From: Mycoplasmatales bacterium | Lineage (GTDB): Bacteria > Bacillota_I > Bacilli_A > CBDATW01 | Reading direction: 5' to 3' | DNA: 64,000 bases | Assembly: GCA_965226165.1 (NCBI GenBank) | Contig: OZ245334.1 | Location: 629,947 to 693,946, forward strand | Shown here: piece after piece, positions 10,438-64,000 of the stretch | How the letters are laid out: every line of letters begins with the position of its first letter | How positions within the stretch are numbered: position 1 is the stretch's first letter | Translations under genes and position numbers: made by a program | Notes under the pieces: model-generated | The model's database searches: none | Told to the model about the DNA's origin: nothing | What the model saw: only the letters and a program-made list of their open reading frames with translations

Positions 10438-10538
10438 ATTAGTATTGTCATTTTATCATAAAAAGTTTAAAAAGTAGTTGCATAAAAATAAAAAATATGT
10501 ATTATACTTTGAAACAAAAAACTAGTCCGGAGTGTATC

Positions 10539-11516
10539 ATGAACAAAATTAAAAGTGGGGTTATTGCTGTTTCCACATTTTCTTCAATATTTGGAGCATT
10601 AACAATTTTTAATAATCCTAATCAAGACCTAAACCAAAAAGGTCAAAAGCAAGAAGTAGAAAAACAACTAGAAGAAAATACTTTTACTAATAATAGAGGT
10701 TCTTCTTCAAGTTATTCTTCATCTTCACAAAGTGCTGCCCCAAGATCAGATGTTATTAACCCAGTTGATCCTGATGGCCTAAAAGCATCATTTGGTTTAA
10801 AAATGCTAGATGCTTTTAAAACCTTGGGAGAGCAAAAATGAAAGCAAACTTATGTCCAACCAATTTTTATTAGAAAAAATGATCAAAGAATTGACTTTGT
10901 TATTCAAAGATTAAAAAATGTTGGTGGATTTAAAATTGCTAAGCAACTAAAAGGTGAGGAAATTAAATTATTTTATCATCAACTTTTACCAATATTGCGC
11001 GGAAAATATTTAGCTGCTGATTTTAAATATCTTGGAAAAGATGAATGAATTAAAAGATATGTTGCTTCTAGTGAGCATGAAAATAACTTTTTAAATTCAA
11101 AACTAGATGAATCGCTAGAAGACATCCAAAAAGATGTTTTAAGTGCATGACAAGGCATTAAGTGAGAACTATGAATCAAAGAGTTTTATAAGCGTGAATT
11201 GCTATGAAAGATTGAAAATGAAACTCTAGAAGATGCTAAAGCATTTATTAATTATTTACATCCCTTCAATCCAGTAAATATGTGATTAAGATGAAAGAAA
11301 AATTATTATCTAAATGATGCGATTAGAGTTTGAAGTGAATCTTATCTTTATGGATCTTATGATCAAAAACAAATTAATGAGTGATTAAATAAAATTGCTA
11401 GCCAATCATTAAATAAAGATAAACAAATTGCTTATATTAAAATGCATAATTTCTTAGCTAAAAGAAAATGAAATAAATATAAACTTTATGGTGGTCTAGC
11501 TGATCATGTCAAATAA
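10539..11516 (+). CDS. Trp-rich secreted/membrane-anchored hypothetical protein (paralog A)
   Basis: GGAG lies 9 nt upstream of the ATG. The N-terminal hydrophobic segment is MNKIKSGVIAVSTFSSIFGALTIF. Hand translation is continuous through 13 in-frame TGA codons to the TAA at 11514. Confidence 0.6.
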
Positions 11517-11600: not shown

Positions 11601-12620
11601 ATGAAAAAAATATTATGACAAGCTCCTCTAGCTTTAATTGTAGGTATTTCTATTGGTAGTGCTTATCGTCAGCATAATGAATATTTAGAGATTCAACCTA
11701 ACAAAAGTGAAATTCAAGTAAAAGAAAAATCTTTTAATATTTATAGCGATGGTTATGCCAAATTAAAAATGCTTGCAAAGCAAAATTCATTCACCGTTAC
11801 TAATAATGATGACTTTTGAAAAATCTTATTAGTTGACTTTAAAAATATGGTGGAGAAACCCTGAAGATCTAAATTAAAAAAACAAAATTTAAAACCTAAT
11901 GATTATGAAGCATTAGAACTTTTAAAACAAGAACAATTAAAATATAGTCAAAAATATATTAAAAAAGAATTTTATGAAGCAAGGGATTGAAGAAGAGTCA
12001 TTTGACCTTTTGCTAATATTGTTGAAGATGATGCCAATCTTTATGAATATAAAAATGAAGTTCAAGGTTTTTATCAAACTATTTTCAGGTTTTTAAAACC
12101 TGAAATTATTATTGATGAATACAAAAGAGTTGGTAAAAAAAGATTTATTAAAGAATTTTTTGAATACACTTTTCATTCTAATGAAACCTTACATAAACAT
12201 TTAAATGAAATTTCCCAAGACCTATACCGAGGATATAACATTTTAAAAATTCAGGAAAAATATGAAATGTTTAATGAAACATTCCTGCAAAATAAATGAT
12301 ATAATAGTCCAACTTATATGATGAAACGCTTTCAATTTAGCATCCCAATTGAACACTTAAGAAACCTTGATCACACTAGAGCTTTTAATTTATTAGTTAA
12401 ACTAGTGGGGATTAATAAAGCTAAAGAAGAATGAAAAATAATTTATATTAAACATAATTATAGACAATATATGAGTGATTATAAACTTAATGAATGATTA
12501 AATAAATTATATGCTGAGCGAGATTTAGCTAAACAAGATTTAATTATGAAAGAATTCTTTATCAAACTTAATTATTATAATATAAGTTACTTTAAATATA
12601 GTGGTGGATATGCCTTATAA
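11601..12620 (+). CDS. Trp-rich secreted/membrane-anchored hypothetical protein (paralog B)
   Basis: Starts MKKILWQAPLALIVGISIGSAY... and is continuous through many TGA=W codons. It shares a NEWLNK.. C-terminal motif and a ...GG.. end with paralog A. Confidence 0.6.
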
Positions 12621-13264: not shown

Positions 13265-14281
13265 TTATTTTAGTATTCATGAATAATTTATATTTTTTAT
13301 AAATCTTTCCATAAAATTAAAATCAATCTTATTGTTTTTTATAGGTAATTTAATTTTTGCTTGTTTTAGCCTATCTAAACTAATCTTTCTTCCATAACTA
13401 TATTTATTTTTTTCTAGCTCAAGCAATAATTTAAAAAATATTCCTATGAATATATTCAATTTGAAATCTTTTGGTTTTAAAACTTGGATATCTGCAGATG
13501 CAAGAAAATCATTGTTTTGAAAAAAAACTACACCTACTTTTCCGTTTCTTGTAATTGTTAATTTGTTTCCTTTTATAATATTTGTTTTTATTGATGTAGA
13601 AAAAGTTACACCATTATTAAATTCACTAGCAGAAATAAAAGGTGTTGAACCGGGAAAATCTTCAATTTCTTTTATTAAAAATGGTTTGTGTTTTTCAAAA
13701 ATAAATAGGTCTAAAATGCTAAATCATTTCCAATCTTTTGTGTTTAAATTTAATGGTTGTCTTTTAAATTTTTGTTTTTCTTTGTTGATGAAATTTAAAA
13801 TATATGAATATTTTAAGTTCTTTATAAATTCTTCCATAAAATTAAAGTTGATTTGATTATTCTTTACAGGCAATTTAATTTTTGTTTTTTTAATGTTCTT
13901 TAAATTAAATGCTCTATTATAACTATATTTTATTTTTTCTAAATCAATAATCATTTTGAAAAAAAGGCCTCTCCATAAATTAATGTGCAAAAATTTTTTA
14001 GGAATGAGTTTTGTGATATTGTTGCCAGTTATGTAATCTTTTGTTTGAAAAAAACAAGTTGCATTCTCGCCACCAATTGTTAACGTGTTTTTTTTGTTTA
14101 TAAAACTGTTTGGATAATTTGTTGATGTTTTTATGACACACCCATCATTATAATTTGATCTAGTAATGTAATTTAATTCTTTTCCAGGCTCAACATTACT
14201 TGCTTTGACATTTTTTGTTGTTTTAATATCAAACAAATCATTTAAATTAAATCATTTTCATTTACTTGTCTCTATTTTCAT
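13265..14281 (-). CDS. restriction-modification specificity subunit with two target-recognition domains (BcgIB/HsdS-like, 338 aa)
   Basis: Track ORFs 13724..14236 and 13277..13459 share a frame and are joined by hand translation. Each TRD is followed by the conserved block ..FFK..LE..KYSY.R......K.KLP.KNN.I.FNFME.FIKN..YS. Confidence 0.8.
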
Positions 14282-16049
14282 ATTCAAAAAAACTTTCTTT
14301 TTTTATTTCATCAATAATACCTTTTTTAAAAAGCTCAATAGCTTTATTCTTTATATAATCTCATTCTTCCATCTGTTCAAGTGCCTTATAATTTGTTTCA
14401 ATATAAGCACTTGGGTGTCATTCCATTTTGTAATCTACTTCTTGTAAAAAACTAAAACCTTCTTCATATTTTAAGTATTTTAAATTATATAGTCATTTTT
14501 CTATAATCTTAGTAGTTTTGTTTGTTTTCATTCTCCCTATATGCTTTAGTACTTTAAAACCATCATCATCATAATTGCCAAAATAAGTTTTACCTTTGTG
14601 TGGTGAATGGGCCTTGAATATTAAGATAATTGTTTCAACTCCAACATCTTTAAATAAATTTTTAGGCATTTTTAAACTTGCTAGTAAGGTGTGACTTTTC
14701 AATACTTTTTCTTTTTTTAAAATATATTCTTTTTTTGAATTAACTCCAACACTAGAAGAAACTATTGCAGCAACTTTACCCCCTACTTCTATTTGATCTA
14801 AAGTGTTTTTTATAAAATCTAATTGATCTTCAGGCCCTCCATCATATGGAGGATTTAACAAGCCGTGTGTTGGTTTTTTTAACATAATTTCATTTTTAAC
14901 TTGCTTTGAAAAACAATCTCCATTAATTAAATTGCTTTTGCCATCTCCATGAATTACCATATTTATTGCTACTGCTGTAAACATTGTGTTTCTTATTTCA
15001 ACACCTATAAGTTGAGTTTTTTTAATTTTGTCTTTTTCTTTAAAGTTAGTTGTGTTTGTTAGCATTTGATTCATAGCAGCGACTAAAAAAGCCCCTGTTC
15101 CACAACAAGGATCTAAAACAACACTGTTTTTATTAATTTCAATTGCTTCAACCATAAATTTTGCTATATGAGGCGGTGTTAAAACTAAGCCTTTTTTTTG
15201 ATCACCTCTTGCATATCTTATAAATTCATTGTAAAACTCTGCCAGAACATCAAAATAATTATTTTGAAAATATGGTTTTACTTCGTCATTAATTCTAATT
15301 AGAAAATCTTTTAAAATATTATTAGGTACTTCTTTTTCTTTATTTTTTTTATCAACTCTAGTTTCTTTAGTAAAAATTTTTTTTTCAATATTTTTTAAAC
15401 TTTTTAAAATTTCTTTAATATTTTTTTCTTCTATTTCACTTTTTTTTAATTGTTGCTTACAACTAGTTAATACATTTTCAACAAGTCCTTCATTATTTTG
15501 CGGAATATGATCTTTTAAAGTGTTTGCAAATGATTCTACTTGTAAAGAAAGGATAGCCGCGCTAATTAAAGATAACCTTTCGCTTTCATCAATAGAAAAA
15601 TTTTGCAAATAATTATTTATTTCTTTTGCTACCTTTTTTAATGATTTGATGTCTGGTTTAGGTAAAAAATAATTATTAATTTCTTTTTCAGAAGGCATTT
15701 CTTCAAATACAATTTTGTTTTGTATAATTGTTTTAGAAATGAAATTATTTTCTTGTCCTGCAATTGCAATTGCAACAATTTGATTATATTTAGAATTTAA
15801 GTGTTGGGAATAATTTTGAACTTCTTTTATTGCTTTTTGTATTTTTTTAGCTAAGTTTTTACATTCAATAACTATTATTCTATTAGGCTTATTTATAAAT
15901 TTAATTAAATAATCTGGCCTCCCTATATTGCCGGGTATATTTTTACTTGCTCCTTTGATTTTGGGATGCCTAAGAATTTCAATTTGATCTATTTTAAAAT
16001 TTTTTTTCAAGTAGTCTTCTACTATTTGTTCTGTATTTCTTTCATTCAT
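14262..16049 (-). CDS. fused PD-ExK endonuclease / gamma-class N6-adenine DNA methyltransferase (BcgIA-like type IIB R-M subunit, 595 aa)
   Basis: The N-terminus has GRPDYLIKF...RIIVIECK (PD..ExK). Methyltransferase motif I is VLDPCCGTGAFL and motif IV is LLNPPYDGG. The track ORF ends at a TGA. Read as Trp, it adds 76 more codons, and the extended ORF overlaps the S-gene start by 20 nt. Confidence 0.8.
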
Positions 16050-28712: not shown

Positions 28713-28748
28713 TTAAAGATATAAAATATTGTATGATATAATACTAAT

Positions 28749-28820
28749 GTCACAATAGTAACCTAAGAACCTGGTCAGATTAGAAATAAAGCAGCCATAA
28801 TTAGAAGTGCTATGTGTGAC
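28749..28820 (+). ncRNA. ffs: signal recognition particle RNA (small 4.5S/scRNA type)
   Basis: The domain IV motif CCTGGTCAG...AGCAGCCATAA is present. The ends pair (GTCACAATAG / CTATGTGTGAC) and a T-run follows. Its position upstream of tadA/dnaX resembles Bacillus scr. Confidence 0.7.
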
Positions 28821-28886
28821 TTTTTTATATATAATAATTTAATTAACAATAAATTCTATATATAAAAAATATAAAATGGTTTTAAG

Positions 28887-54594: not shown

Positions 54595-56572
54595 CAAACA
54601 AATAAATAAAAATGTTAGAAAAAATTCAATTTTTCCATTTCTTTTTATGGCCATCTTAATTTCTTCAATAGTTTTTTTGTTTAGGAATCCTTTAACTAAA
54701 ATTCATACTAACACTGAATTTCAAAAAATTTTAGTTGATGATAGTTACCAATTTGAAAGCGTTAATATTTTTCCTTCAGAAAAAACAATGCAAGTTAAAG
54801 GGATTTATTATAAAGATGATAAAAAGTATGAGTTTGAAACCATTTATCCCAATACTGAGAAAAATTATAACTATATAGTTGAAACAATTAATCAAAAAAT
54901 TAAAGATCCTACAAAAGGATTAACAATTGTTAAACCATCTAACTTTTCAATTTGGAATTTACTTTGAAATATTCTTATTTTTGTAGTTCCATTTATGTTA
55001 ATCTTTTGACTACTTTCTAAATCAGGCCCAAGCAAGGGAATAGAATTTGGAAAATCAAGAGCTAAATTAAACAAATTAAACACTATCACCTTTAAAGATG
55101 TGGCAGGAGCAAAAGAAGAAAAAGAAGAACTTAGTGAAATTGTTGATTTCTTAAAAAAACCTAACGAATATGTTTCACTAGGAGCAAGAGTTCCTAAGGG
55201 GGTAATTTTAGTTGGGCCACCTGGAACTGGTAAAACTTTACTTGCAAAAGCAGTTGCTGGGGAAGCCAAGGTGCCTTTTTACACAATTTCTGGTTCTGAT
55301 TTTATTGAAATGTTTGTTGGGGTTGGTGCCTCAAGAGTAAGAAGTATGTTTAAGGAAGCCAAAAAAAATGCCCCTTGCATCATTTTTATTGATGAAATTG
55401 ATGCAGTAGGAAGAAATCGTGGACCTGGTTCAATGGGGGGACATGATGAAAGAGAACAAACCCTTAATCAGTTACTAGTAGAAATGGATGGGTTTGGTAC
55501 TAATGCAGGAATTATTATAATCGCCGCTACTAACCGTGAAGATGTTTTAGATAAGGCCTTGCTTCGTCCTGGAAGATTTGATCGTCGCATTTCAGTTCAT
55601 TTACCAGATGTTTATGCCCGAATTGAAATTTTAAAAGTTCATGCTCGTAATAAAAAATATGCTAAGGGAATTGATTTTGAAAAATTAGCATATCGAACAC
55701 CTGGATTTACTGGAGCTCAACTGGAAAATGTTTTAAATGAAGCAACCCTTCTTTCAATTCGAGATGACAGTAAAAAAGTAACAATGCTTCATCTTGATGA
55801 GGCAGTTGATCGAGTAATTGGTGGACCAGCCAAATATTCAAAAAAGAAAAATGCTGAAGAACGAAAACTAGTTGCCTTCCATGAAGCGGGTCATGCTGTC
55901 ATTGGGTTAAAATTAGCAGATGCAGAAATTGTGCAAAAAGTAACAATTATTCCTCGTGGGGCAGCTGGTGGTTATGTTTTGATGACTCCAAAAAAAGAAT
56001 CATTTATTTTAACTAAAACCCAAATGTTTCATAAAATTGTTTCATATATGGGGGGGAGGGTTTCTGAAAAACTTCATTTTGGAAAAGAAAATATTACAAC
56101 AGGATCATCTGATGATATGAAAAAAGCAACAAGTTTAGCAAGAGCAATGGTAACGCGCTTTGGAATGTCTGATGAAATTGGTCCAATTTCTCTTGAACCA
56201 AGCAACCAAAATGCTTTTGGACCTTCGTCAATACTTAATCCAGCCAAAGAATATGGAGAACAAGTTAATTCTCAAATTGATAGTGAAATTAAAAAAATTA
56301 TTCTTAATGCTGAGAAAAAAGCTCATGAAATTATTAGTAAACATTTACCAAAAGTGAAACTTATTGCTGAAATGTTACTTAAGCATGAAACTTTAACAGC
56401 AGAAATGATTGAAAACATTGATAAATATAATGATGTATCAAAACCAATTGAAAAAAAAGAAGATAAAAAAGAAAAAGTAAAAAAAGAAGAAAAACAAAAG
56501 GATTTAAAACCAAAAGAAAAAACTAAGAAATCTTTAAAACAAGAGTCACTAGATTTTAATAATAAAAAATAA
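54572..56572 (+). CDS. ftsH: ATP-dependent zinc metalloprotease FtsH
   Basis: Contains [13 protein letters not shown] and HEAGHA. Both fragments share one frame (2001 nt). It has a K/E-rich tail. Confidence 0.95.
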
Positions 56573-56578
56573 TTCTAA

Positions 56579-59500
56579 TTATGAATTTGCTTCTTTGTAT
56601 TTGGAAAAAAGTGATTGAGCTCTAGGAGTATTTTGGAATATTCTTTTTGTTTTTTCAAATGAACTTTCAACCCAAGATTGAATATCATTATAAACTTGTT
56701 TACTGGCTAAATAATCACCAATTTTTGGATTTAAACCAACTTCTTCTCAATATTCTTGCCATTTTTTTGAACTTCAATTTTTATAAATATTTTCAACAAA
56801 TAAAGAATTTATAAAAATATCCTTAATTAAAGTCTTTTGATTTGCTGTAACAAAAGTATTTAATGATGCTTTAAATTGAGTAGTTTGTTTAAATTTTTCT
56901 TCGGTTCTAACATTAGGATCAATTCAACTTTGATAAGCTTTTTCTGTTTCATTCTCATCTTTAAAAAATGCTTTAGTGTTGTCATAGTTATTAATTCAAT
57001 TTTTTCAATGTTGTTGATATTCATGACTATTTAAAAAATCAGCATTTGTAAATACTTTTTCATTTTTAAAGTTATCATAATCATTTTTTTTAGCACTCTT
57101 TGAATAATCATCATAGCCTTTTTTAAATCCTAAATCTTCTTTTAAATAATATTCAACAAAATCATCTTTATAAAAATCACTATTTAATTCATAATCTCTT
57201 CTTGTTCTTATTAATGGGTCTTCTCAATTTTTATAATCATTTAAAGCTTGTTTTGAATTATGATAAATTTTCACATCATTTTTTGAAAGAAAATTGTTAT
57301 ATGCAGTTTCATAAGCTTTTTCTTTTTGAAAGTTTTCATTTGTTAAGTTTGGTTGTTCTCATTTTTGATAATCACTTAAAGCTTCTTTTTTATAAATTTC
57401 TAAAGCATTTGCTTTGGTTGCCCACTTTTTCAAATCAAGATTAAATTGATTAGATTTTAAATATTTATTTTTTAATCAAGTGTTAAAAACATTAATGTTT
57501 TCTTCATCTTTTTTAAACAAAGCAACACTTTCAACTTTTAAATTAATTCAATTATTAAAATAAGAATCTTTATCATCACTTGCTTGGAATTTTAATTCAT
57601 TATCTTTTTGCAATTTAGCATTGTAAGCATTATATTTTTGTATTGTGTCTTTATCTTGTAAAAATAAGTCCCCAAGATTCTCACTATTTGTTCATTTATA
57701 TAAGTCTTGTAAAAAACGATTATTATTATTTGTTTTATTATAGTCAGCTTTGGTTCTAACCAAAGGATCTATTCAATTATTGTAATCAACTTTAGCTTCA
57801 TCACTTAATAAATATCATTTTTTTCCTTTTGCTAAAATTCAAGCACTCAAAGCATCTTCATATGCTTTTAAGCCTTTTTCAAAATCACTTGCTTGGTGTT
57901 TTTCAGGATCATTTCATTGATTATAATCTTGATTTGATTGATCATCACTTTTATAAAGGTTAAAAACAAAATCATTATTTTCATTGATCCATTTATCTAA
58001 ATCATTTTTATATGCTTCTTTTAAATAATAGTTTTTATATCAATTTAAATAAATGTTTGTTTTACTTTGATCATTAATCATTTGGTCAATAAATTTTTTG
58101 TGCTTTCTTTGCATTTTTAATTCTTGATTAACAATTTCATTTCAGTAATTATTGTAATCTAAATTATATTGTTCATTTAAATATTTTTGATCATATTGTT
58201 TTAAAATATTATCATTATGTTCCTTAAATTTTGTTTTAAAAAAGGAACTATCTTCAAAGATATCTGGCAAAATATTTGCTTTTATTTTTGACCAAGTATC
58301 TAAATCATTTCATTTTTGAAGATTGTTATATTTATCAGTCCATTTAGTTTTTTCAAGAATTTCTTCTTCAAAATATTTTATACCACCAGTTGCATCATTA
58401 ACCCAAGAATTAAAATCATTGTTTCAGTTGCTTTGTTTTGCCAAATATTTTTCTTTATTTTGTTTGGCAATTTCTTTTTTTCCAACATCTAATTTTAGCC
58501 ATTGTTTAAAAGCTAAATTTTGATCATTTTTTCATTGGTTGAATGCAATGTTATGACTATTATCTTTTTCAAAATCACTTTTTGTAATTTTTTTAGCAAC
58601 TTTTCAATGTTCATAATCCCTAACAATTGCTAGATCATCTTTTTTATATAAATCTTTTAAAAAGTTATTGTGAATATCAACCTGTGCATCAATTCATGAA
58701 TTGAAAGGTTTATTTGTCTTAAATCATTTGCTAAATCAATCCTGATAAGGTTTAAAATTATTAAAATAACCAGTTTTTGTTTTGTCTTTAGATAATTTTT
58801 TTAATTCAAAAAGTTCTTTTTTCCATTGCTCATTTTTGAAAAACTCTTCATTAGCATAATAAGAATTTTTAAAATAATTTTCTTTATTTTGGGAATCTAA
58901 TCACTTTTTAAAGTTGCTATTAAAATCATTAGAATAATAATAACTTTGCAGGGCAATTTGTTTGTTTGATAAATTATTATATTTATTATTTAATTGATTA
59001 ATTTGATTTAAACTCAATTTAAAATCATCAATAACAGCAATTTTATTTTCACTTCTCCCACCGTCATTACTTCTTCTTGCTTGAGAAAGCCACTTATTTT
59101 CAAAATATTTTACAAATAGTTTATTTAATTCATCATGTTCATAAAGATTATAAAATTTATCATATTGCAATTTTACTTTTCGAAGACTATAAGCATTTGG
59201 ATTGTTATTTTTTCAATTTTTGAAAGCTAAAGATTTTTCAAATTCATCAATAGCATTATAATTAATCATCAATATTTGATTATCTTTAATTTTTGTTTTT
59301 GAAAGTAAACTAATGCTTCCATAATCACTATCCACCTCTGCTTCTTCTCTATATATTTGGTGATCATTTGTGCTTGAAATTTCTTTTAATTTTTCCTTAA
59401 AACTATTAAACATTCCTTCAATCACCGAGTCTAATCAAGCCTGATCATCTTCACCTCTAAGTCTCATTGTGCGCATTCAATTCATTATGTAGCGATCTCG

Positions 59501-62500
59501 ATTTTCAATGTAATACCTAAATTTTTTTAAATCCATCATTGACAATATTTCTAACATTTTATCCTGATCTTGATGGGCTTCAATCAATTCTTTTCAACTA
59601 TATTTGTCTTCTCTAAAAGAAAATTCTTGATTTATACCATGAAGATTATCAAAAGCATAGGGCGTATAACCTTCTGGGAAAAAAAGACCATCACCAGTGG
59701 GATATTTGTATCCCCATAGTTTTTTACTAGAAATAAAATTAGCATCAATATGATTAAAATAAGTTATTTTTTGATTAACAATGGCATTTTTATTTGTTGT
59801 TTTAACATCTAATTGATCAAGAATTTTTAAAGGATCATATTCTCTATTTTTTCACAAAGTATAAACTTTTTTTCAAAATGTACTTTTAATTCGGTTTTTT
59901 CACAAACTATAGCGCTCACTCATTAGGTTGCTATGATAAGAATAAGTTCTTAAAAAAGGATTAATAACATATTTAACATAGCTTAAAAAGTTTTTAACAA
60001 ACGCCTTTGGTTGAATAAATGTTTTATCTTCTTTTTCACCAAAACGATAAAAAATTTCTTCTAGTCAAGATCAGTCAGGCTTCTTTATTCGATAATGGCT
60101 AAGAGCACCATTTTTATGTTCTGGAATATATGAATTATAAGATAAATACCTAGTGTTATGGCCTCACTCAATTTTTGTTTGCATATTTTGTCAATTGAAA
60201 TATTCATAAGGATTATTAATACTTTGATCAAAGTTCTTATATAGTTCACTTAAAAAACTTTTACCCCAGTTTTGTGAACTACTAAATGATTTTGCAAAAT
60301 CATTTTGATTAACCATTGATTCATCTTTAATACTAATGATTTGGGGTATTAACCAAGCATAAAACTCTCTCTTATATTGGGGATTATCTGATAATAACAC
60401 ATCCCCACTTCCACCAATTCATTTAGCAATTTCTTTTCTTAATTCACCATGCTTTCGCTTTTGTTCAAAGCTTGTTGGTGAATTAAATTTAGTTTGCCAA
60501 TTTGTTAAATCATCTTGATAAGAGCTTGAATTTTGGTATTCATTTTTCAAATATTTTAATGATGTTTTTTCTCAATCTTGATAATATTTGTCATAATTTG
60601 AAAAAGATTTAATATCATTTAATCAATCGCTTTTAGTTAGTGTTGCTTTAAAATTAGCAAAAGCCTTTTTATAAGAATTAGCAAACTCAATATTTTTGTA
60701 TTTTTTTTCCAATAATGATTTCTTATAAACATTTTCTAAAATATATAAATTATTAGATTCTTGTTTTCAATTATCAAAATATTGGTTTAAAAATATTGAA
60801 TCTTTTCATTGGTCTTTGGTTAAAAATGAATTAGCATTTTTATAATCTTCATATGCTTTTGCATATTGGGGAGAATTTCTTCAAAGAGTCTTTAATTCTT
60901 CTTCATTTTCTTGGCTCCACTTTAAAAATTCAGCATTTGAATAATCAATATTTTTTTGATTTGAGATTCACCGATTCATTTGGGTTTGAAAAATAGGTTC
61001 ACTTTCCCATTTAGCTTTTAATAAATTAAAATTCTTTGCTTTTCAAATACTAAAATCAAAATCACTAACACCACTTTTTGCAACAATATAATCTTGCAAT
61101 TTTTGGTCATAACCATTGTTTGAAGAATCCTTTTTTCAAAGATTAAAACGCAGATTACGACTATTATTAAATTCTTGATGTTTAGTTCAATCCAAAAAAG
61201 CTTGATTAGAAACATTTTGGTTAGACCATTGCTCTTTTGACAAAGTAGGAACATTTTGTTTTTGCAATCATTTGTTTTTAAAATCACTTAATTGATTATT
61301 ATCAAAATCACTTTTTAATAAATTATTTCCCTCTTGATTCATTCACTTTTTAAACTCTTCATTAAAAGAATGGTCATTTCTAATTTGACCATCTTGGTGA
61401 TTGCTATTTTGAAACCAATAATTAAGATTAGTTTTATTCTTTGTTTTATCATCTATTCATTTTTCCTGAGAATTTTGAAAATTAAAATCTCCTTTGTTAG
61501 TTTTTTTTCATTCATTTTTAATTTTAATATGAGAATTATTTTTTCAACTATTGTAATAACTATTAACAAAAGGAGAGGCTAGTCATTGGGTCTTGGTTCT
61601 TTTGCCTTTAGCATTCAATCAACTATTTTTTTTACTTAAATAATCATTGTCAAAATTTGATTCTCATTTGTTTTTTAAAAAACTATAATGATTAGTAGTT
61701 TTTCAATTTTCATATTCCTGATTTCAAAAAACTTCATTATTTTTTCAATTAGCAAAACTTTGTTTTTTTGGCCCTTCATTAATTCAAGCACCAACCCTTG
61801 CTTCATAATCATCTTTACCATCACTTTTTCATAGATGGACTAATTGGTTTTTTAAAGAAGGTCTTTTAACTCAAGTTTGAAAATGACTTTGACCATCCAA
61901 AGTATTTAATCATTGCTTTTTTGAAATTGATTCAAAAGTTTTATCGTTAGATTCAATTCATGTTTTTAAACTATTTTGATAATGGTTGGTGTTTTTATAT
62001 CAATGATTTAAAATAGATAACTTTTTAGTATTGACTCATTTTTGAAATTGAGTCCTTCCTTCACTAATCTCTACTCAATCTTTTACCTTATGGTTTTGAG
62101 AATTAATTCAATTAGTTTTTGCATCTAAAAAATTATTAGCACCACTTGTTGTTTTTTTGAAACCATAATTTTCATCATCACTAACTTTTTTTAAATTTTG
62201 TGCTTCCTTAATTCAATTATTATAAAACGAGTTACTATAATCATTGCTTAACCAATTTTCATAACTCATTTTATTAACTTTTTTTCAATTATTAAATTTT
62301 TGTTGATAATCATCACTTTTTATAAAAAGGTTTTTTCCATCACTTTTAAAAGCAGCACTAGTTTTATAACTTTTAAAATTTTCTAGCCAAAAACTTTGAT
62401 CTTTTTTTCAATGATCAAAAGTTCTTTTGCTTTGGTGCTTACCCTTTTTTAAAAAAACATTAACTTTAGTTTCATAATCTTGGGTATTTTTTCAGTTATT

Positions 62501-63289
62501 AAGTAAATCTTGATTATCTACTTGTTTTAAAAGTCATTTATTGTAACTTTTCTTTCCATAAATTTCTTCTCATTTTTCCATTGTTGGTTTTTGATTTTTT
62601 TTTGTCACCCATTTTTTTTGTTCTTGACTAAAAGCATCACTTTTTTTTCAAGCATTTAACAATAAAAGATTTTTTTCAGGTTTTAAAATCCATTCCTTGT
62701 GTAAATCTTTAGCATCCTTTGTGTCAATTCAAAAGTCTTTTGTTCTTTTTTTTGGGCCACTAGATATTCAATTATTCATTGTGCTTAAAATTGGTAGATT
62801 TTCTTGCCTTGCTTTTTGCAAGTAATGAGCTCCCAAAGGTTTTTGCCCTTCAGGTAAATTTTTTCAAGAAGCAAAATACTGAGTCGTTTTATCTTTTTTT
62901 AGCATCCACTTTCTTCAACTTTGAATGCTATCTTTTTGACTTTTGGCTCATCTATTTAAATACTCATCAAATCGATCATCCTTTTGAAACTCAGCAGTCA
63001 AAACCTTTAAGGCTTCAGGAGATTTTTTCCATGTCTCAAAAGCTTTTGTTGCCTCACTAGTTTGAAATCATTGGTCAAAAGTTATATTTCTATTATTAAA
63101 ACTCGAAGTAATTTTATCGACTAAAGATTGTGGTTTTTTAGTTTCTTGAATTTTAGAATCTTTTTTTTCATTATCTATTTTTTGTTCTTGTAAACCCAAA
63201 AAAAGTGAATTATCCATAAGATAAAAAGAACTTATCCCCATTGTTAAAAATGTCACCATTCCTAGGTTATTTTTATTGTTTCTTCTCAT
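56579..63289 (-). CDS. giant Trp-rich secreted/surface protein (~2,236 codons)
   Basis: Track fragments 63068.., 60191.., 59213.. and 58901.. all share the frame of the ATG at 63289 and the TAA at 56579 (6711 nt). I translated 63289..60360 codon by codon. It was open except for one doubtful 60-nt stretch (62101..62160). 60360..56579 was translated only quickly. The N-terminal anchor is LGMVTFLTMGISSFYL. Confidence 0.6.
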
Positions 63290-63390
63290 TAATAATAATT
63301 TTTTTACACTTCACCTTCAAAATCTTATCTAATAGATTATATTATCATTTTTGTGGTTTTTTACAAGACAAAAAAACTGATAAAACAATT

Positions 63391-64000
63391 TTATTTTGTT
63401 TCAATTAAAGCATATTTTTCAAAATTTATTTTTTCATTTTTTGTTGCCAAATATGCTTCTTCTTTAATTAAATCAATCACAATTGCATCATTTTTTAAAA
63501 TAATGCTTTCTTTTAAAACTGTTATTACATAATCTAAAAATTGATAACTTAAAGGATTTTTGGAAATAAATGTTGGTTGATAATCATGGTTTTTTAAACA
63601 CTGTAATGATTTTTTAATATGCAAAGGGCGCAATTTATTATTTTCTAAACAATTAAAGTCATAAAAACAATAAGTAATATCTGATGGTTGTTGGATTTCT
63701 AAAATTTTTGAGTTTTGTCCAACGCTATGAATTAAACCAGCTGGAACATTAATAACATCATTAACCTTAGGAACAATTTTTATTAATAAATCTTCAATTT
63801 TATTTGCTTTAATCTTTTCTAAAATTTTTTGATGATCATAAGTCTTGATCCCAACCACAAATTCACTATTTTTTTAGCTTCTAAAATAAATCATGATTCA
63901 CTTTTTCTATTTTATTCTTTTTCTAATTTTCAAGCCAACTTATCATCAGGGTGAACCTGGATAGAAAGAGGATTTTTAACATAAATAATTTTAACTAAAG
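63391..64000 (-). pseudogene. manA: class I mannose-6-phosphate isomerase, disrupted (5' end beyond window)
   Basis: LSIQVHPDDKLAWKLEKE is followed by an in-frame TAA (63912..63914), then NRKSESWFILEAKK. A frame change at an A7 run (63869..63875) leads into track ORF 63391..63858 (..VPAGLIHSVG..). Confidence 0.55.

What the first reader, a model, noticed from the sequence alone, without database searches (positions are those of the whole stretch)
56579..63289. Apparent single 6.7-kb gene for a ~2,236-aa Trp-rich surface protein
Only four short fragments appear in the track, yet all share one frame with an ATG at 63289 and a TAA at 56579. In my codon-by-codon reading of the first ~975 codons I counted about 43 in-frame TGA codons and about 10 TGG. 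Trp recurs in [FY]xxW-like contexts (for example FNNWKK, YENWLS, FQKWVN, FQTWVK, YENWKT). The protein has an N-terminal signal anchor and no lipobox. One caveat applies. In the 60-nt stretch 62101..62160 my reading gave an in-frame TAG (62126..62128), with a more natural reading in the adjacent frame on both sides. That would mean two compensating 1-nt shifts, so it is either my misreading or a real local lesion.
Basis: seen in the sequence. Interest (0 to 1): 0.7.

Follow-up and report, generated by a model that had tools for sequence, protein, structure and literature searches.

The report
Giant tryptophan-repeat protein of a mollicute
The region is one intact 6.7-kb gene, readable only with the mycoplasma genetic code, for a 2,236-residue probably exported protein built from short helices that each carry one tryptophan; it belongs to an undescribed protein family found so far in only a few uncultured mycoplasma-like bacteria, and its function is unknown.

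Summary
Window 56579-63289 (-) is one uninterrupted table-4 ORF of 2,236 codons. It has 78 TGA and 24 TGG codons, giving 4.56% Trp against 0.92% in the other window genes.

The gene is under purifying selection (dN/dS 0.17). Full-length colinear orthologues sit at the same locus, convergent with ftsH, in three other metagenomic genomes. Trp is the best-conserved residue.

The protein has these parts:
- a basic N-terminus followed by a hydrophobic segment, with no Cys and so no lipobox;
- about 16 degenerate ~53-aa units, each with four Trp spaced 13-14 residues apart;
- a unique ~470-aa centre;
- DYxxWxDP repeats;
- a conserved ~230-aa tail.

Paralogues share the head and tail but differ in repeat number. 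One of 3,695 aa lies elsewhere in the window's own genome, and three lie in tandem in a related genome.

AlphaFold2 on the regular repeats of the 3,695-aa paralogue gave pLDDT 83. It predicts one short helix plus three helices of 9-14 residues per unit, with every Trp in a helix.

Pfam, NCBIfam, PDB sequence searches and Foldseek all found nothing. No relatives turned up in the GTDB representative genomes or the JGI metagenomes.

The best reading is an exported helical-repeat fibril, adhesin-like, from a new lineage-specific family. Function and cell-surface location are inferred, not shown.

The parts
56579..63289 (-). Complete coding sequence in table 4: 2,236 codons plus a TAA stop. The product is 270.7 kDa with pI 9.2, no Cys and 102 Trp.
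   Evidence: dN/dS is 0.17 against the orthologue in L002.
63336..63347 (-). Conserved upstream TGATAATATAAT, an extended -10-like element (TGnTAWTAT) about 50 nt before the ATG. It is followed by the conserved leader TAAGATTTTGA.
   Evidence: The element is nearly identical in L002, and it is recognisable as TGCTATTATAAC...ATAAGATTTTGA in the 44%-identical orthologue's locus L001. The generic promoter scan is uninformative in this AT-rich DNA. Function is inferred.
63191..63265 (-). N-terminal hydrophobic segment, residues 9-33 (LGMVTFLTMGISSFYLMDNSLFLGL), preceded by the basic MRRNNKNN. It is a putative Sec signal or signal-anchor.
   Evidence: This is the only hydrophobic stretch in the protein. 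TFLT.GISSFYLMD is invariant in the orthologues. An equivalent basic-plus-hydrophobic segment ending in G-x-Y-Y is present in all paralogues.
62999..63136 (-). Family 'head', residues 52-97: K-P-x-S-L-[IV]-D ... T-F-x-Q-W..T.EA..A[FY]E.W[KR].S.
   Evidence: The head aligns across the window protein, P0001, P0002, P0008, P0009, P0010, P0012 and the downstream gene of L084.
60497..63073 (-). N-terminal repeat region, residues 73-931. It holds about 16 degenerate ~53-aa units, each made of four ~13-14-aa segments that end in Trp (motif [FYL]-x-x-W-[KIL]).
   Evidence: Trp autocorrelation at lag 13 has z = 6.3. Internal profile matches link 187-359, 405-582 and 679-845. The iterated unit HMM finds 16 units. 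An HMM built only from P0009 hits the orthologue's N-terminal region at 2e-10 to 5e-16.
59000..60412 (-). Unique central region, residues 960-1430. It is non-repetitive and specific to the ftsH-linked orthologue group. It carries the indels between orthologues and conserved blocks such as YRFGE.ED and LWKN.EYDP.
   Evidence: It has no internal homology to the repeats. The only unit-HMM hit here is one sub-threshold 14-residue match at 1355-1368 (E 0.32). Pfam finds nothing at E<=10 for the window protein's centre, and only a sub-threshold IgD2_Trs65 hit (E 0.048) for P0002's. Alignment.
56852..58999 (-). C-terminal repeat region, residues 1431-2146. It contains the repeats D-Y-x-x-W-x-D-P-x-x-R-T-x-x-D-[YF], and a ~180-aa module is duplicated (1808-1954 matches 1991-2138).
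   Evidence: The double-motif DNA pattern hits the window once, with 0 expected by chance.
56582..57271 (-). Family 'tail', residues 2007-2236, conserved in all full-length family members and ending ...W.....F.....A..L[FY]..YK.
   Evidence: Alignment of 11 family tails. BLASTP against the same-genome paralogue P0009 over the last ~600 aa gives E 4e-32.

Best explanation
This is a functional gene of a code-4 (TGA = Trp), 25% GC, mycoplasma-like bacterium. It encodes a 271-kDa basic, cysteine-free, all-helical protein.

Shown:
- The ORF is intact and under purifying selection along its whole length.
- It has full-length orthologues at a conserved locus in three other genomes.
- It is modular: head, about 16 four-Trp ~53-aa units, a unique centre, DYxxWxDP repeats and a tail.
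- It belongs to a small multigene family. The members share the head and tail but carry very different numbers of repeats.

Predicted:
- Each ~13-aa segment forms one short helix with its Trp in the last turns.
- A unit is therefore one short helix plus three helices of 9-14 residues, probably a small Trp-cored helical bundle.
- The array is probably an elongated chain or rod of such bundles.

Inferred:
- The basic-plus-hydrophobic N-terminus sends the protein through the Sec pathway.
- The protein stays tethered by the N-terminus or is released.
- The long repeat array projects from the wall-less cell as a fibril.
- The many regularly spaced Lys/Arg-plus-aromatic surfaces bind a polymeric ligand on a host or partner surface multivalently, so the protein is adhesin-like.

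My confidence by step: about 0.97 for a real functional gene, about 0.9 for a new family, about 0.7 for export, and about 0.35-0.4 for adhesin-type binding.
For: The ORF is intact. dN/dS is 0.17 overall and 0.11-0.25 in every 200-codon block, while the protein is 85% identical and the neighbouring FtsH is 97% identical. Trp is conserved at 89% against 45% overall in the distant orthologue. The order hsp33 - 2 hypothetical genes - this gene, convergent with ftsH-tilS-pth-pgm-ispF, is kept in all four genomes. An upstream -10-like element and leader are conserved. The hydrophobic segment is the only one in the protein and is conserved across the family, and there is no Cys. Two other unannotated window proteins (10497-11516 and 11601-12620) start with similar basic-plus-hydrophobic N-termini, which suggests a common export signal style in this organism. 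P0009, a 3,695-aa paralogue on the same 753,368-bp contig as the window protein, matches at BLASTP E 1e-50 (head and N-terminal repeats) and 4e-32 (tail). Three giant paralogues lie in tandem in L084. Repeat number ranges widely across the family (1,252-3,695 aa), as in variable surface proteins. For structure, AlphaFold2 on P0009 610-933 gave mean pLDDT 83.4, four helices per 53-aa unit and all 24 Trp in helices. The window orthologue's N-terminal half was also predicted all-helical, but at low confidence. The pI is 9.2, and 9.5 in the N-terminal repeat region.
Against: Nothing direct shows export, surface exposure or any ligand. The hydrophobic segment is only moderately hydrophobic (maximum 1.09), and no signal-peptide or topology predictor was available. 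The window protein itself modelled poorly (pLDDT 35 with a 2-sequence alignment), so the structural picture is borrowed from a paralogue with only 29% identity. That model's pTM is 0.30, so the packing between units is not defined. I could not inspect coordinates to verify that the Trp are buried. The ftsH-linked orthologue is single-copy, colinear and of nearly constant length (2,236-2,248 aa) across species. That looks more like a conserved structural component than a variable adhesin. The organism and its habitat or host are unidentified.
Confidence: 0.5

Rival explanations
1. It is a structural surface component rather than an adhesin. The protein would form a conserved spacer, coat or scaffold on the wall-less cell, for example for mechanical or osmotic protection, for keeping distance from the host, or for organising other surface proteins. 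The Trp-cored helical units would act only as rigid building blocks.
For: The ftsH-linked copy is single, syntenic and nearly constant in length and register in four genomes. It is under uniform purifying selection with no hypervariable block. No phase-variation features were found: homopolymer runs occur at the background rate.
Against: The paralogues vary strongly in repeat number and occur in tandem arrays, which is more typical of interaction or variation proteins. There is no evidence for self-assembly.
Confidence: 0.2
2. It is a cytoplasmic, membrane-tethered cytoskeletal or scaffold protein. The N-terminal hydrophobic segment would anchor the protein on the inner face of the membrane, and the helical repeat rod would act inside the cell, as the large helical cytoskeletal proteins of some mycoplasmas do.
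For: The segment is only moderately hydrophobic. The protein is very large, Lys-rich and all-helical. The locus is conserved among housekeeping genes.
Against: The positive charges (MRRNNKNN) precede the hydrophobic segment. By the positive-inside rule (established knowledge) this places the bulk of the protein outside. The layout of a basic stretch, a 15-17-residue hydrophobic stretch and then polar sequence looks like a signal peptide, and it recurs in all paralogues. Family expansion with variable repeat numbers is unusual for cytoskeletal proteins.
Confidence: 0.1
3. It is an exported multivalent binder of anionic polymers such as extracellular nucleic acid, used for nutrient capture. Each ~53-aa unit would act as a basic three-helix mini-domain with a Trp core. 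This is analogous in principle to Myb/SANT repeats, which have three regularly spaced Trp per ~52 aa. The protein would hold DNA or RNA at the surface of a nucleotide-auxotrophic cell.
For: The predicted unit is 53 aa with a short helix plus three helices of 9-14 residues, and one Trp per helix. Each unit starts with a basic cluster, KR-x-K-x-x-W. The pI of the repeat region is 9.5.
Against: No Pfam Myb/SANT or other nucleic-acid-binding hit appears even at E<=10. The Trp spacing is 13-14, not 18-19. The resemblance comes from my own knowledge and is only architectural. No nuclease or transporter gene is linked to the locus.
Confidence: 0.1
4. It is a decayed gene or several genes: the long frame is an artefact or a pseudogene.
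For: Under table 11 the frame contains 78 internal TGA codons that read as stops, plus the terminal TAA. One related low-coverage contig (L083) shows the gene in fragments.
Against: There is no TAA or TAG in 2,236 codons, with a chance probability of about e^-162. TGA is demonstrably Trp. dN/dS is 0.17. Four full-length colinear orthologues exist. In L083, ftsH, hsp33 and gpsA are fragmented as well, and the contig has 1.79x coverage, so those breaks are assembly errors.
Confidence: 0.01

Closest known systems
Giant repetitive surface proteins of mollicutes, for example Mycoplasma mobile Gli349 and the Mycoplasma hominis Lmp proteins (from my own knowledge; not compared by sequence here)
   Same: The proteins are very large (over 2,000 aa), lineage-specific and built from internal repeats. 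They have a hydrophobic N-terminal segment as the only membrane-type feature. They are encoded with many TGA-Trp codons. They occur in wall-less bacteria, where such proteins form the interface with the host.
   Different: No homology is detectable to anything named. Pfam and NCBIfam give 0 hits. Only 6 relatives, all unnamed, exist among 1.84 billion cluster representatives. The repeat here is a 53-aa four-Trp helical unit, which to my knowledge has not been described for those proteins.
Myb/SANT tryptophan repeats
   Same: The units are about 52-53 aa and are predicted to contain three main helices. Regularly spaced Trp are the most conserved residues, and the composition is basic.
   Different: The Trp spacing is 13-14 with four Trp per unit, not 18-19 with three. 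There is no Pfam PF00249 match, even for isolated units at E<=10. The context is bacterial and probably exported, with dozens of tandem units.
Three-helix-bundle rod adhesins of Gram-positive cocci (FIVAR/GA-module arrays such as Staphylococcus Ebh) and spectrin repeats
   Same: The concept is the same: a very long fibre made of many tandem small helical bundles, each with conserved aromatic core residues.
   Different: There is no sequence match. There is no structural match either: Foldseek against PDB gives a best E of 4.3. There is no cell-wall anchor, and the Trp density is far higher.
Plasmodium tryptophan-rich antigens (a helical, Trp-rich exported family; see PMC13091410 for the family's role in host-cell binding)
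   Same: These are exported, helical proteins with unusually high and positionally conserved Trp content, used at a host interface.
   Different: They are eukaryotic, much smaller and not tandem 53-aa arrays. No Pfam hit to that family's domain was found. The resemblance lies only in composition.

Membership tests
The new family itself (giant Trp-repeat proteins of this mollicute clade) | An N-terminal basic-plus-hydrophobic segment followed by the head motif K-x-S-L-[IV]-D ... TF.QW..T.EA..A[FY]E.W[KR].S | tested here: met
   Alignment of 8 full-length members. BLASTP of the window protein against P0009 gives E 1e-50 from residue 2.
The new family itself (giant Trp-repeat proteins of this mollicute clade) | Tandem ~53-aa units with Trp every 13-14 residues | tested here: met
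   Lag-13 z = 6.3. The unit HMM finds 16 units at residues 73-931. An HMM built only from P0009 hits the orthologue P0001 at up to 5e-16.
The new family itself (giant Trp-repeat proteins of this mollicute clade) | C-terminal DYxxWxDP repeats and the conserved ~230-aa tail | tested here: met
   (E 4e-32 over the C-terminal 600 aa).
Bacterial lipoprotein | A lipobox with an invariant Cys at the end of the signal peptide | tested here: not met
   The protein contains no Cys at all.
Any curated protein family (Pfam-A, NCBIfam) | A score above the family's gathering threshold | tested here: not met
   The whole protein gives 0 families at E<=1. The six relatives give none above threshold. The isolated centre, tail and repeat units give only sub-threshold noise.
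Myb/SANT repeat | Three Trp spaced 18-19 residues apart in a ~52-aa helix-turn-helix unit, and a match to PF00249 | tested here: not met
   The spacing is 13-14 with four Trp per unit. There is no Pfam match.
Choline-binding and other cell-wall-binding aromatic repeats | ~20-aa beta-hairpin repeats matching the Pfam CW_binding models | tested here: not met
   There is no Pfam match. The predicted secondary structure is entirely helical.
Known helical-bundle repeat folds (spectrin, FIVAR/GA, TPR/HEAT-type solenoids) | Structural superposition of a multi-unit model on a solved structure | tested here: inconclusive
   Foldseek of the 324-aa, pLDDT-83 model gave no match at E<=0.001 in PDB or BFVD. 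However, pTM is 0.30, so the arrangement between units is unreliable.
Sec-exported, signal-anchored surface protein | An N-terminal signal peptide or anchor recognised by a dedicated predictor, or experimental surface exposure | not testable with these tools
   Only a hydropathy scan and the conservation of the segment are available. No SignalP, TMHMM or proteomics was available.
Mycoplasma gliding or adhesion proteins (Gli349, P1/MgPa and others) | Sequence homology to a characterised member | tested here: not met
   Cultivated mollicute proteomes should be part of the searched collections, although this was not checked. The word-indexed search of 5.8 billion clusters returned only two unnamed relatives. 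The exhaustive HMMER search of 1.84 billion representatives with the centre and C-terminal profile returned only six unnamed metagenomic or uncultured-genome proteins. The N-terminal repeats were not searched exhaustively.

The most novel reading that the evidence does not exclude
The ~53-aa unit (four Trp at 13-14-residue spacing, one Trp per short helix) is a previously undescribed protein repeat or fold. The family it defines, with one syntenic core copy plus expandable paralogues of up to 3,695 aa, is the principal host-interface or fibril system of an uncharacterised clade of code-4 mollicutes. On this reading the tryptophans form a continuous aromatic spine that gives a long, thin helical rod its rigidity.
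Probability: 0.3. Interest if true: 0.55.

Novelty: new variant of a known kind. Interest (0 to 1): 0.4.

Why it matters
Wall-less mollicutes meet their hosts through a few very large, lineage-specific surface proteins, and most such proteins in uncultured lineages have no annotation. This one is a clean case. It is a conserved 271-kDa protein invisible to standard-code gene callers, because 78 in-frame TGA codons cut it into pieces too short to be called. That probably explains why relatives are so scarce in protein databases. It shows a simple, regular sequence rule (one Trp per ~13-residue helix, four per 53-aa unit) that matches no curated family or solved structure. If the unit proves to be a new Trp-cored helical repeat, it would interest repeat-protein structural biologists and protein designers. 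It would also give a marker family for this mollicute clade. It does not bear on any long-standing open question, and the function is unproven, so the interest is moderate.

Tried and rejected
1. Organism identification failed.
- An exact 59-mer from the gene is absent from the GTDB representative genomes.
- The search for related loci with P0001 and with GyrB found nothing. The patterns chosen for P0001 mostly contained Trp. I assume these were back-translated as TGG only, which would miss TGA-encoded Trp.
- A conserved GyrB fragment returned only distant bacteria at 65-73% identity, which was uninformative.
- A Trp-masked alignment of the four orthologues found nothing in the GTDB representatives or in the JGI metagenomes.
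- A TGR-aware double-motif DNA pattern hits every family locus in hand but found nothing in the JGI metagenomes.

2. AlphaFold2 on the orthologue's first 1,000 residues with a 2-sequence alignment failed (pLDDT 35). I did not use that model for fold search.

The first representative job also failed because the profile had more than 1,200 positions. I therefore used pieces of the orthologues.

4. The search for homologous proteins with the repeat alignment A7 collected 8,000 candidates, probably its cap, and returned nothing, not even known members. It is uninformative.

5. The fragmented copies P0003, P0004, P0005 and P0007 looked like a pseudogenised allele. They sit on a 1.79x-coverage contig on which housekeeping genes are broken too, so I rejected them as assembly errors.

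6. I looked for phase-variation signals. Homopolymer runs of 8 or more occur at the background rate. Only an A7 versus A9 difference in the 5' leader separates the two strains, and I rejected this as weak.

7. The generic promoter and terminator scan is at noise level in this AT-rich DNA.

8. Catalytic or sorting motifs (HExxH, GxSxG, RGD, LPxTG) are all absent.

9. Literature searches for Trp-rich mollicute proteins and for the sample accessions found nothing relevant.

10. Sub-threshold Pfam hits are treated as noise. For P0009 these were BTRD1 and DUF7204. For the tail they were Com_YlbF and DUF7658.
Full report
**The observation**

I translated the reverse complement of window 56579-63289 with genetic code 4. 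It reads as one open frame of 2,236 sense codons, from the ATG at 63289 to a single TAA at 56579-56581. There is no internal TAA and no TAG, and there are 78 TGA and 24 TGG codons.

The first 975 codons contain 43 TGA and 11 TGG, and the five quoted motifs are all present.

The suspected in-frame TAG at 62126-62128 does not exist. The in-frame codons there are AAT AAT TTT TTA GAT, and the TAG sits out of frame inside a run of six T.

Under the standard bacterial code, only four in-frame pieces of at least 60 aa survive.

With 25% GC, TAA and TAG together are expected in about 7% of codons. An open frame of this length therefore has a chance probability of about e^-162.

**TGA encodes Trp in this organism**

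- The universally conserved Trp of GyrB (QLWETTM) is encoded by TGA.
- TGA and TGG replace each other at 27 aligned positions between this gene and its closest orthologue.
- TGA accounts for 76% of Trp codons in this gene and 81% in the other window genes.

So the codon usage is ordinary and the Trp content is what stands out: 4.56% against 0.92% in the other 48 window genes, binomial P about 3e-38.

**The genome**

The window looks like a mollicute genome. It has 25% GC, uses code 4, and carries dnaA-dnaN-gyrB-gyrA at 20-27 kb. The identical protein (P0006) lies on a 753,368-bp contig.

**The gene is real and under selection**

Searches of 5.8 billion protein clusters, first with the sequence and then with a profile, found only two relatives. 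P0001 is 85% identical and 2,236 aa long. P0002 is 44% identical and 2,248 aa long. Both align from end to end. An exhaustive HMMER search added a further orthologue, P0008, of 2,240 aa.

In all four genomes the gene sits at the same place. It follows hsp33 and two hypothetical genes, and it is convergent with ftsH-tilS-pth-pgm-ispF.

Against the 85% orthologue, dN/dS is 0.17, and it lies between 0.11 and 0.25 in every 200-codon block. The neighbouring FtsH is 97% identical. The protein therefore evolves faster than housekeeping proteins but is constrained along its whole length.

Trp is the best-conserved residue between the window protein and the 44% orthologue: 89% conserved, against 45% overall.

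A -10-like element, TGATAATATAAT, and a short leader upstream of the ATG are conserved even in the distant orthologue's locus.

A set of short cluster members looked like a broken allele. They come from a 1.79x-coverage contig on which ftsH, hsp33 and gpsA are broken too, so those breaks are assembly errors.

**Anatomy of the protein**

The protein is 270.7 kDa with pI 9.2. It contains no Cys and is rich in Lys, Asn and aromatic residues.

- *N-terminus.* Residues 1-8 are basic. Residues 9-33 are the only hydrophobic stretch in the protein, with a Kyte-Doolittle maximum of 1.09.
- *N-terminal half.* Trp recur with a 13-residue period (autocorrelation z = 6.3, with further peaks at lags 27, 40-42 and 55). 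The motif is [FYL]-x-x-W-[KIL].
- *Larger duplications.* Profile-profile comparison of segments shows large internal duplications. Residues 187-359, 405-582 and 679-845 match one another, and so do 1808-1954 and 1991-2138. Residues 960-1460 are unrelated to either repeat region.
- *C-terminal third.* It carries repeats of the form D-Y-x-x-W-x-D-P-x-x-R-T-x-x-D-[YF].

**The family**

I ran an exhaustive HMMER search of 1.84 billion cluster representatives with a profile of the centre and C-terminal region. It returned only six proteins. Besides the orthologue P0008 they are:

- P0009, 3,695 aa, E 6e-68
- P0010, 1,630 aa
- P0012, 1,252 aa
- two fragments

P0009 lies on the same 753,368-bp contig as the window protein, so it is a paralogue elsewhere in the window's own genome. 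Direct BLASTP of the two gives E 1e-50 over the head and N-terminal repeats and 4e-32 over the last 600 residues.

P0010 lies on the same 788-kb contig as P0008. It is flanked in tandem by two more giant paralogues, of 3,438 and 2,096 aa.

The full-length members, including the partially read upstream gene of L084, have 4.1-5.3% Trp and at most one Cys. The two fragments have 2.8-3.4% Trp. The full-length members share three features:

- the same basic-plus-hydrophobic N-terminus;
- the same head motif (K-x-S-L-[IV]-D ... TF.QW..T.EA..A[FY]E.W[KR].S);
- the same ~230-aa tail.

They differ mainly in the number of repeats.

**The repeat unit**

In P0009 the N-terminal repeat is nearly perfect and exactly 53 aa long. 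Its consensus is KRdKDtW-lnLADATSKYNTW-KaTsAarNALKgnW-ytTNdYqsKkDaW, so each unit has four Trp at 13-14-residue spacing.

An HMM built only from P0009 repeats hits the N-terminal region of the window protein's orthologue at 2e-10 to 5e-16. An iterated unit HMM delineates 16 units in window residues 73-931. It finds only one sub-threshold 14-residue match in residues 960-1430. It finds weaker units across 1431-2146, including the DYxxWxDP repeats. The last result could partly reflect profile drift.

**Structure**

AlphaFold2 on the orthologue's first 1,000 residues with two sequences gave an all-helical but unreliable model, with pLDDT 35.

I then modelled a 324-residue stretch of P0009 (six units). 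The alignment had 16 rows of in-register segments from paralogues and orthologues. The model has mean pLDDT 83.4 and pTM 0.30.

Each 53-aa unit is predicted as one short helix (KDTW) followed by three helices of 9-14 residues. All 24 Trp lie in helices, and nearly all lie within the last two turns.

The low pTM means that the packing between units is undefined. I could not inspect coordinates, so calling the unit a 'Trp-cored three-helix bundle' is an inference.

Foldseek found no match at E<=0.001 in PDB (best E 4.3) or in BFVD.

**Comparison with what is known**

- Pfam and NCBIfam give no hit for the protein, for its relatives, or for its isolated modules.
- PDB sequence searches with the full-length and repeat profiles give nothing.
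- No relatives were found in 185,579 GTDB representative genomes or in the JGI metagenomes, even with Trp-masked or TGR-aware queries.
- Literature searches found nothing on this family.

One caveat matters. A pipeline that calls genes with the standard code would cut such a gene roughly every 28 codons. Protein databases therefore probably under-represent the family.

**Interpretation**

Two things are established. This is a real, selected gene, and it belongs to a new, narrowly distributed multigene family with a new Trp-periodic helical repeat.

My best-supported functional reading is an exported protein, either anchored by its N-terminus or released, whose repeat array forms a long fibril on the wall-less cell. 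The fibril would bind a polymeric ligand multivalently through regularly spaced basic and aromatic surfaces. The protein would then be adhesin-like, in the manner of other giant repetitive mollicute surface proteins.

The support is indirect:

- the conserved signal-like N-terminus;
- the absence of any other hydrophobic segment;
- the basic, repeat-rich composition;
- the expansion and repeat-number variation of the paralogues;
- the intermediate evolutionary rate.

The ftsH-linked copy studied here is single-copy and constant in length. This gives real weight to a purely structural role as a coat or spacer. A cytoplasmic scaffold, or an anionic-polymer (nucleic-acid) binder with Myb-like units, cannot be excluded.

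**Verdict**

The finding is a new variant of a known kind of thing, a giant repetitive protein of a mollicute that is probably on the cell surface. Its repeat is undescribed and rather elegant. Interest is moderate at 0.4, because function, location and even the organism remain unknown. Lineage-specific giant orphan proteins are common in mollicutes.

Noticed in passing
window 63391-64000 (-), and L002 9000-9900: Directly upstream of the giant gene lies a decayed mannose-6-phosphate-isomerase-like gene (IQVHPDD motif). In the window it is interrupted by a stop and a frameshift. In the 85%-identical strain it is broken at different positions. It looks like a pseudogene that is being lost next to a PTS EIICB gene.
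   Followed up: partly
outside the window, on the same 753,368-bp contig (protein P0009); also locus L084 1-19268: The window's genome encodes a second, larger family member of 3,695 aa with near-perfect 53-aa repeats. A related 788-kb genome has three giant paralogues (3,438, 1,630 and 2,096 aa) in tandem next to enolase, in addition to its ftsH-linked orthologue.
   Followed up: partly
[not shown]
   Followed up: partly
window 13265-16049 (-): There is a type I restriction-modification specificity subunit (Methylase_S, two target-recognition halves) overlapping an N6_Mtase subunit. No adjacent restriction (HsdR) ORF of at least 100 aa was seen.
   Followed up: no
window 10497-11516 and 11601-12620 (+): Two adjacent 339-aa proteins have no Pfam hit. 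Both have basic-plus-hydrophobic N-termini and raised Trp content (3.2% and 2.4%), and both carry a shared ...NEWLNK... motif near the C-terminus. They may be a second small family of exported proteins. BLASTP shows no similarity to the giant protein.
   Followed up: partly
window 63290-63312 (-) versus L002 9975-10000: The A-run in the 5' leader between the GAAGGT element and the ATG is A7 in the window and A9 in the 85%-identical strain. Homopolymer runs inside the gene occur at the background rate.
   Followed up: partly
window 28739-28833 (+): A bacterial small SRP RNA is the only Rfam match in the window. ARAGORN found no tRNA genes in the 64 kb.
   Followed up: no
window 56572-56582: The giant gene and ftsH converge with only 6 bp between their stop codons. 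No terminator-like hairpin lies between them.
   Followed up: no
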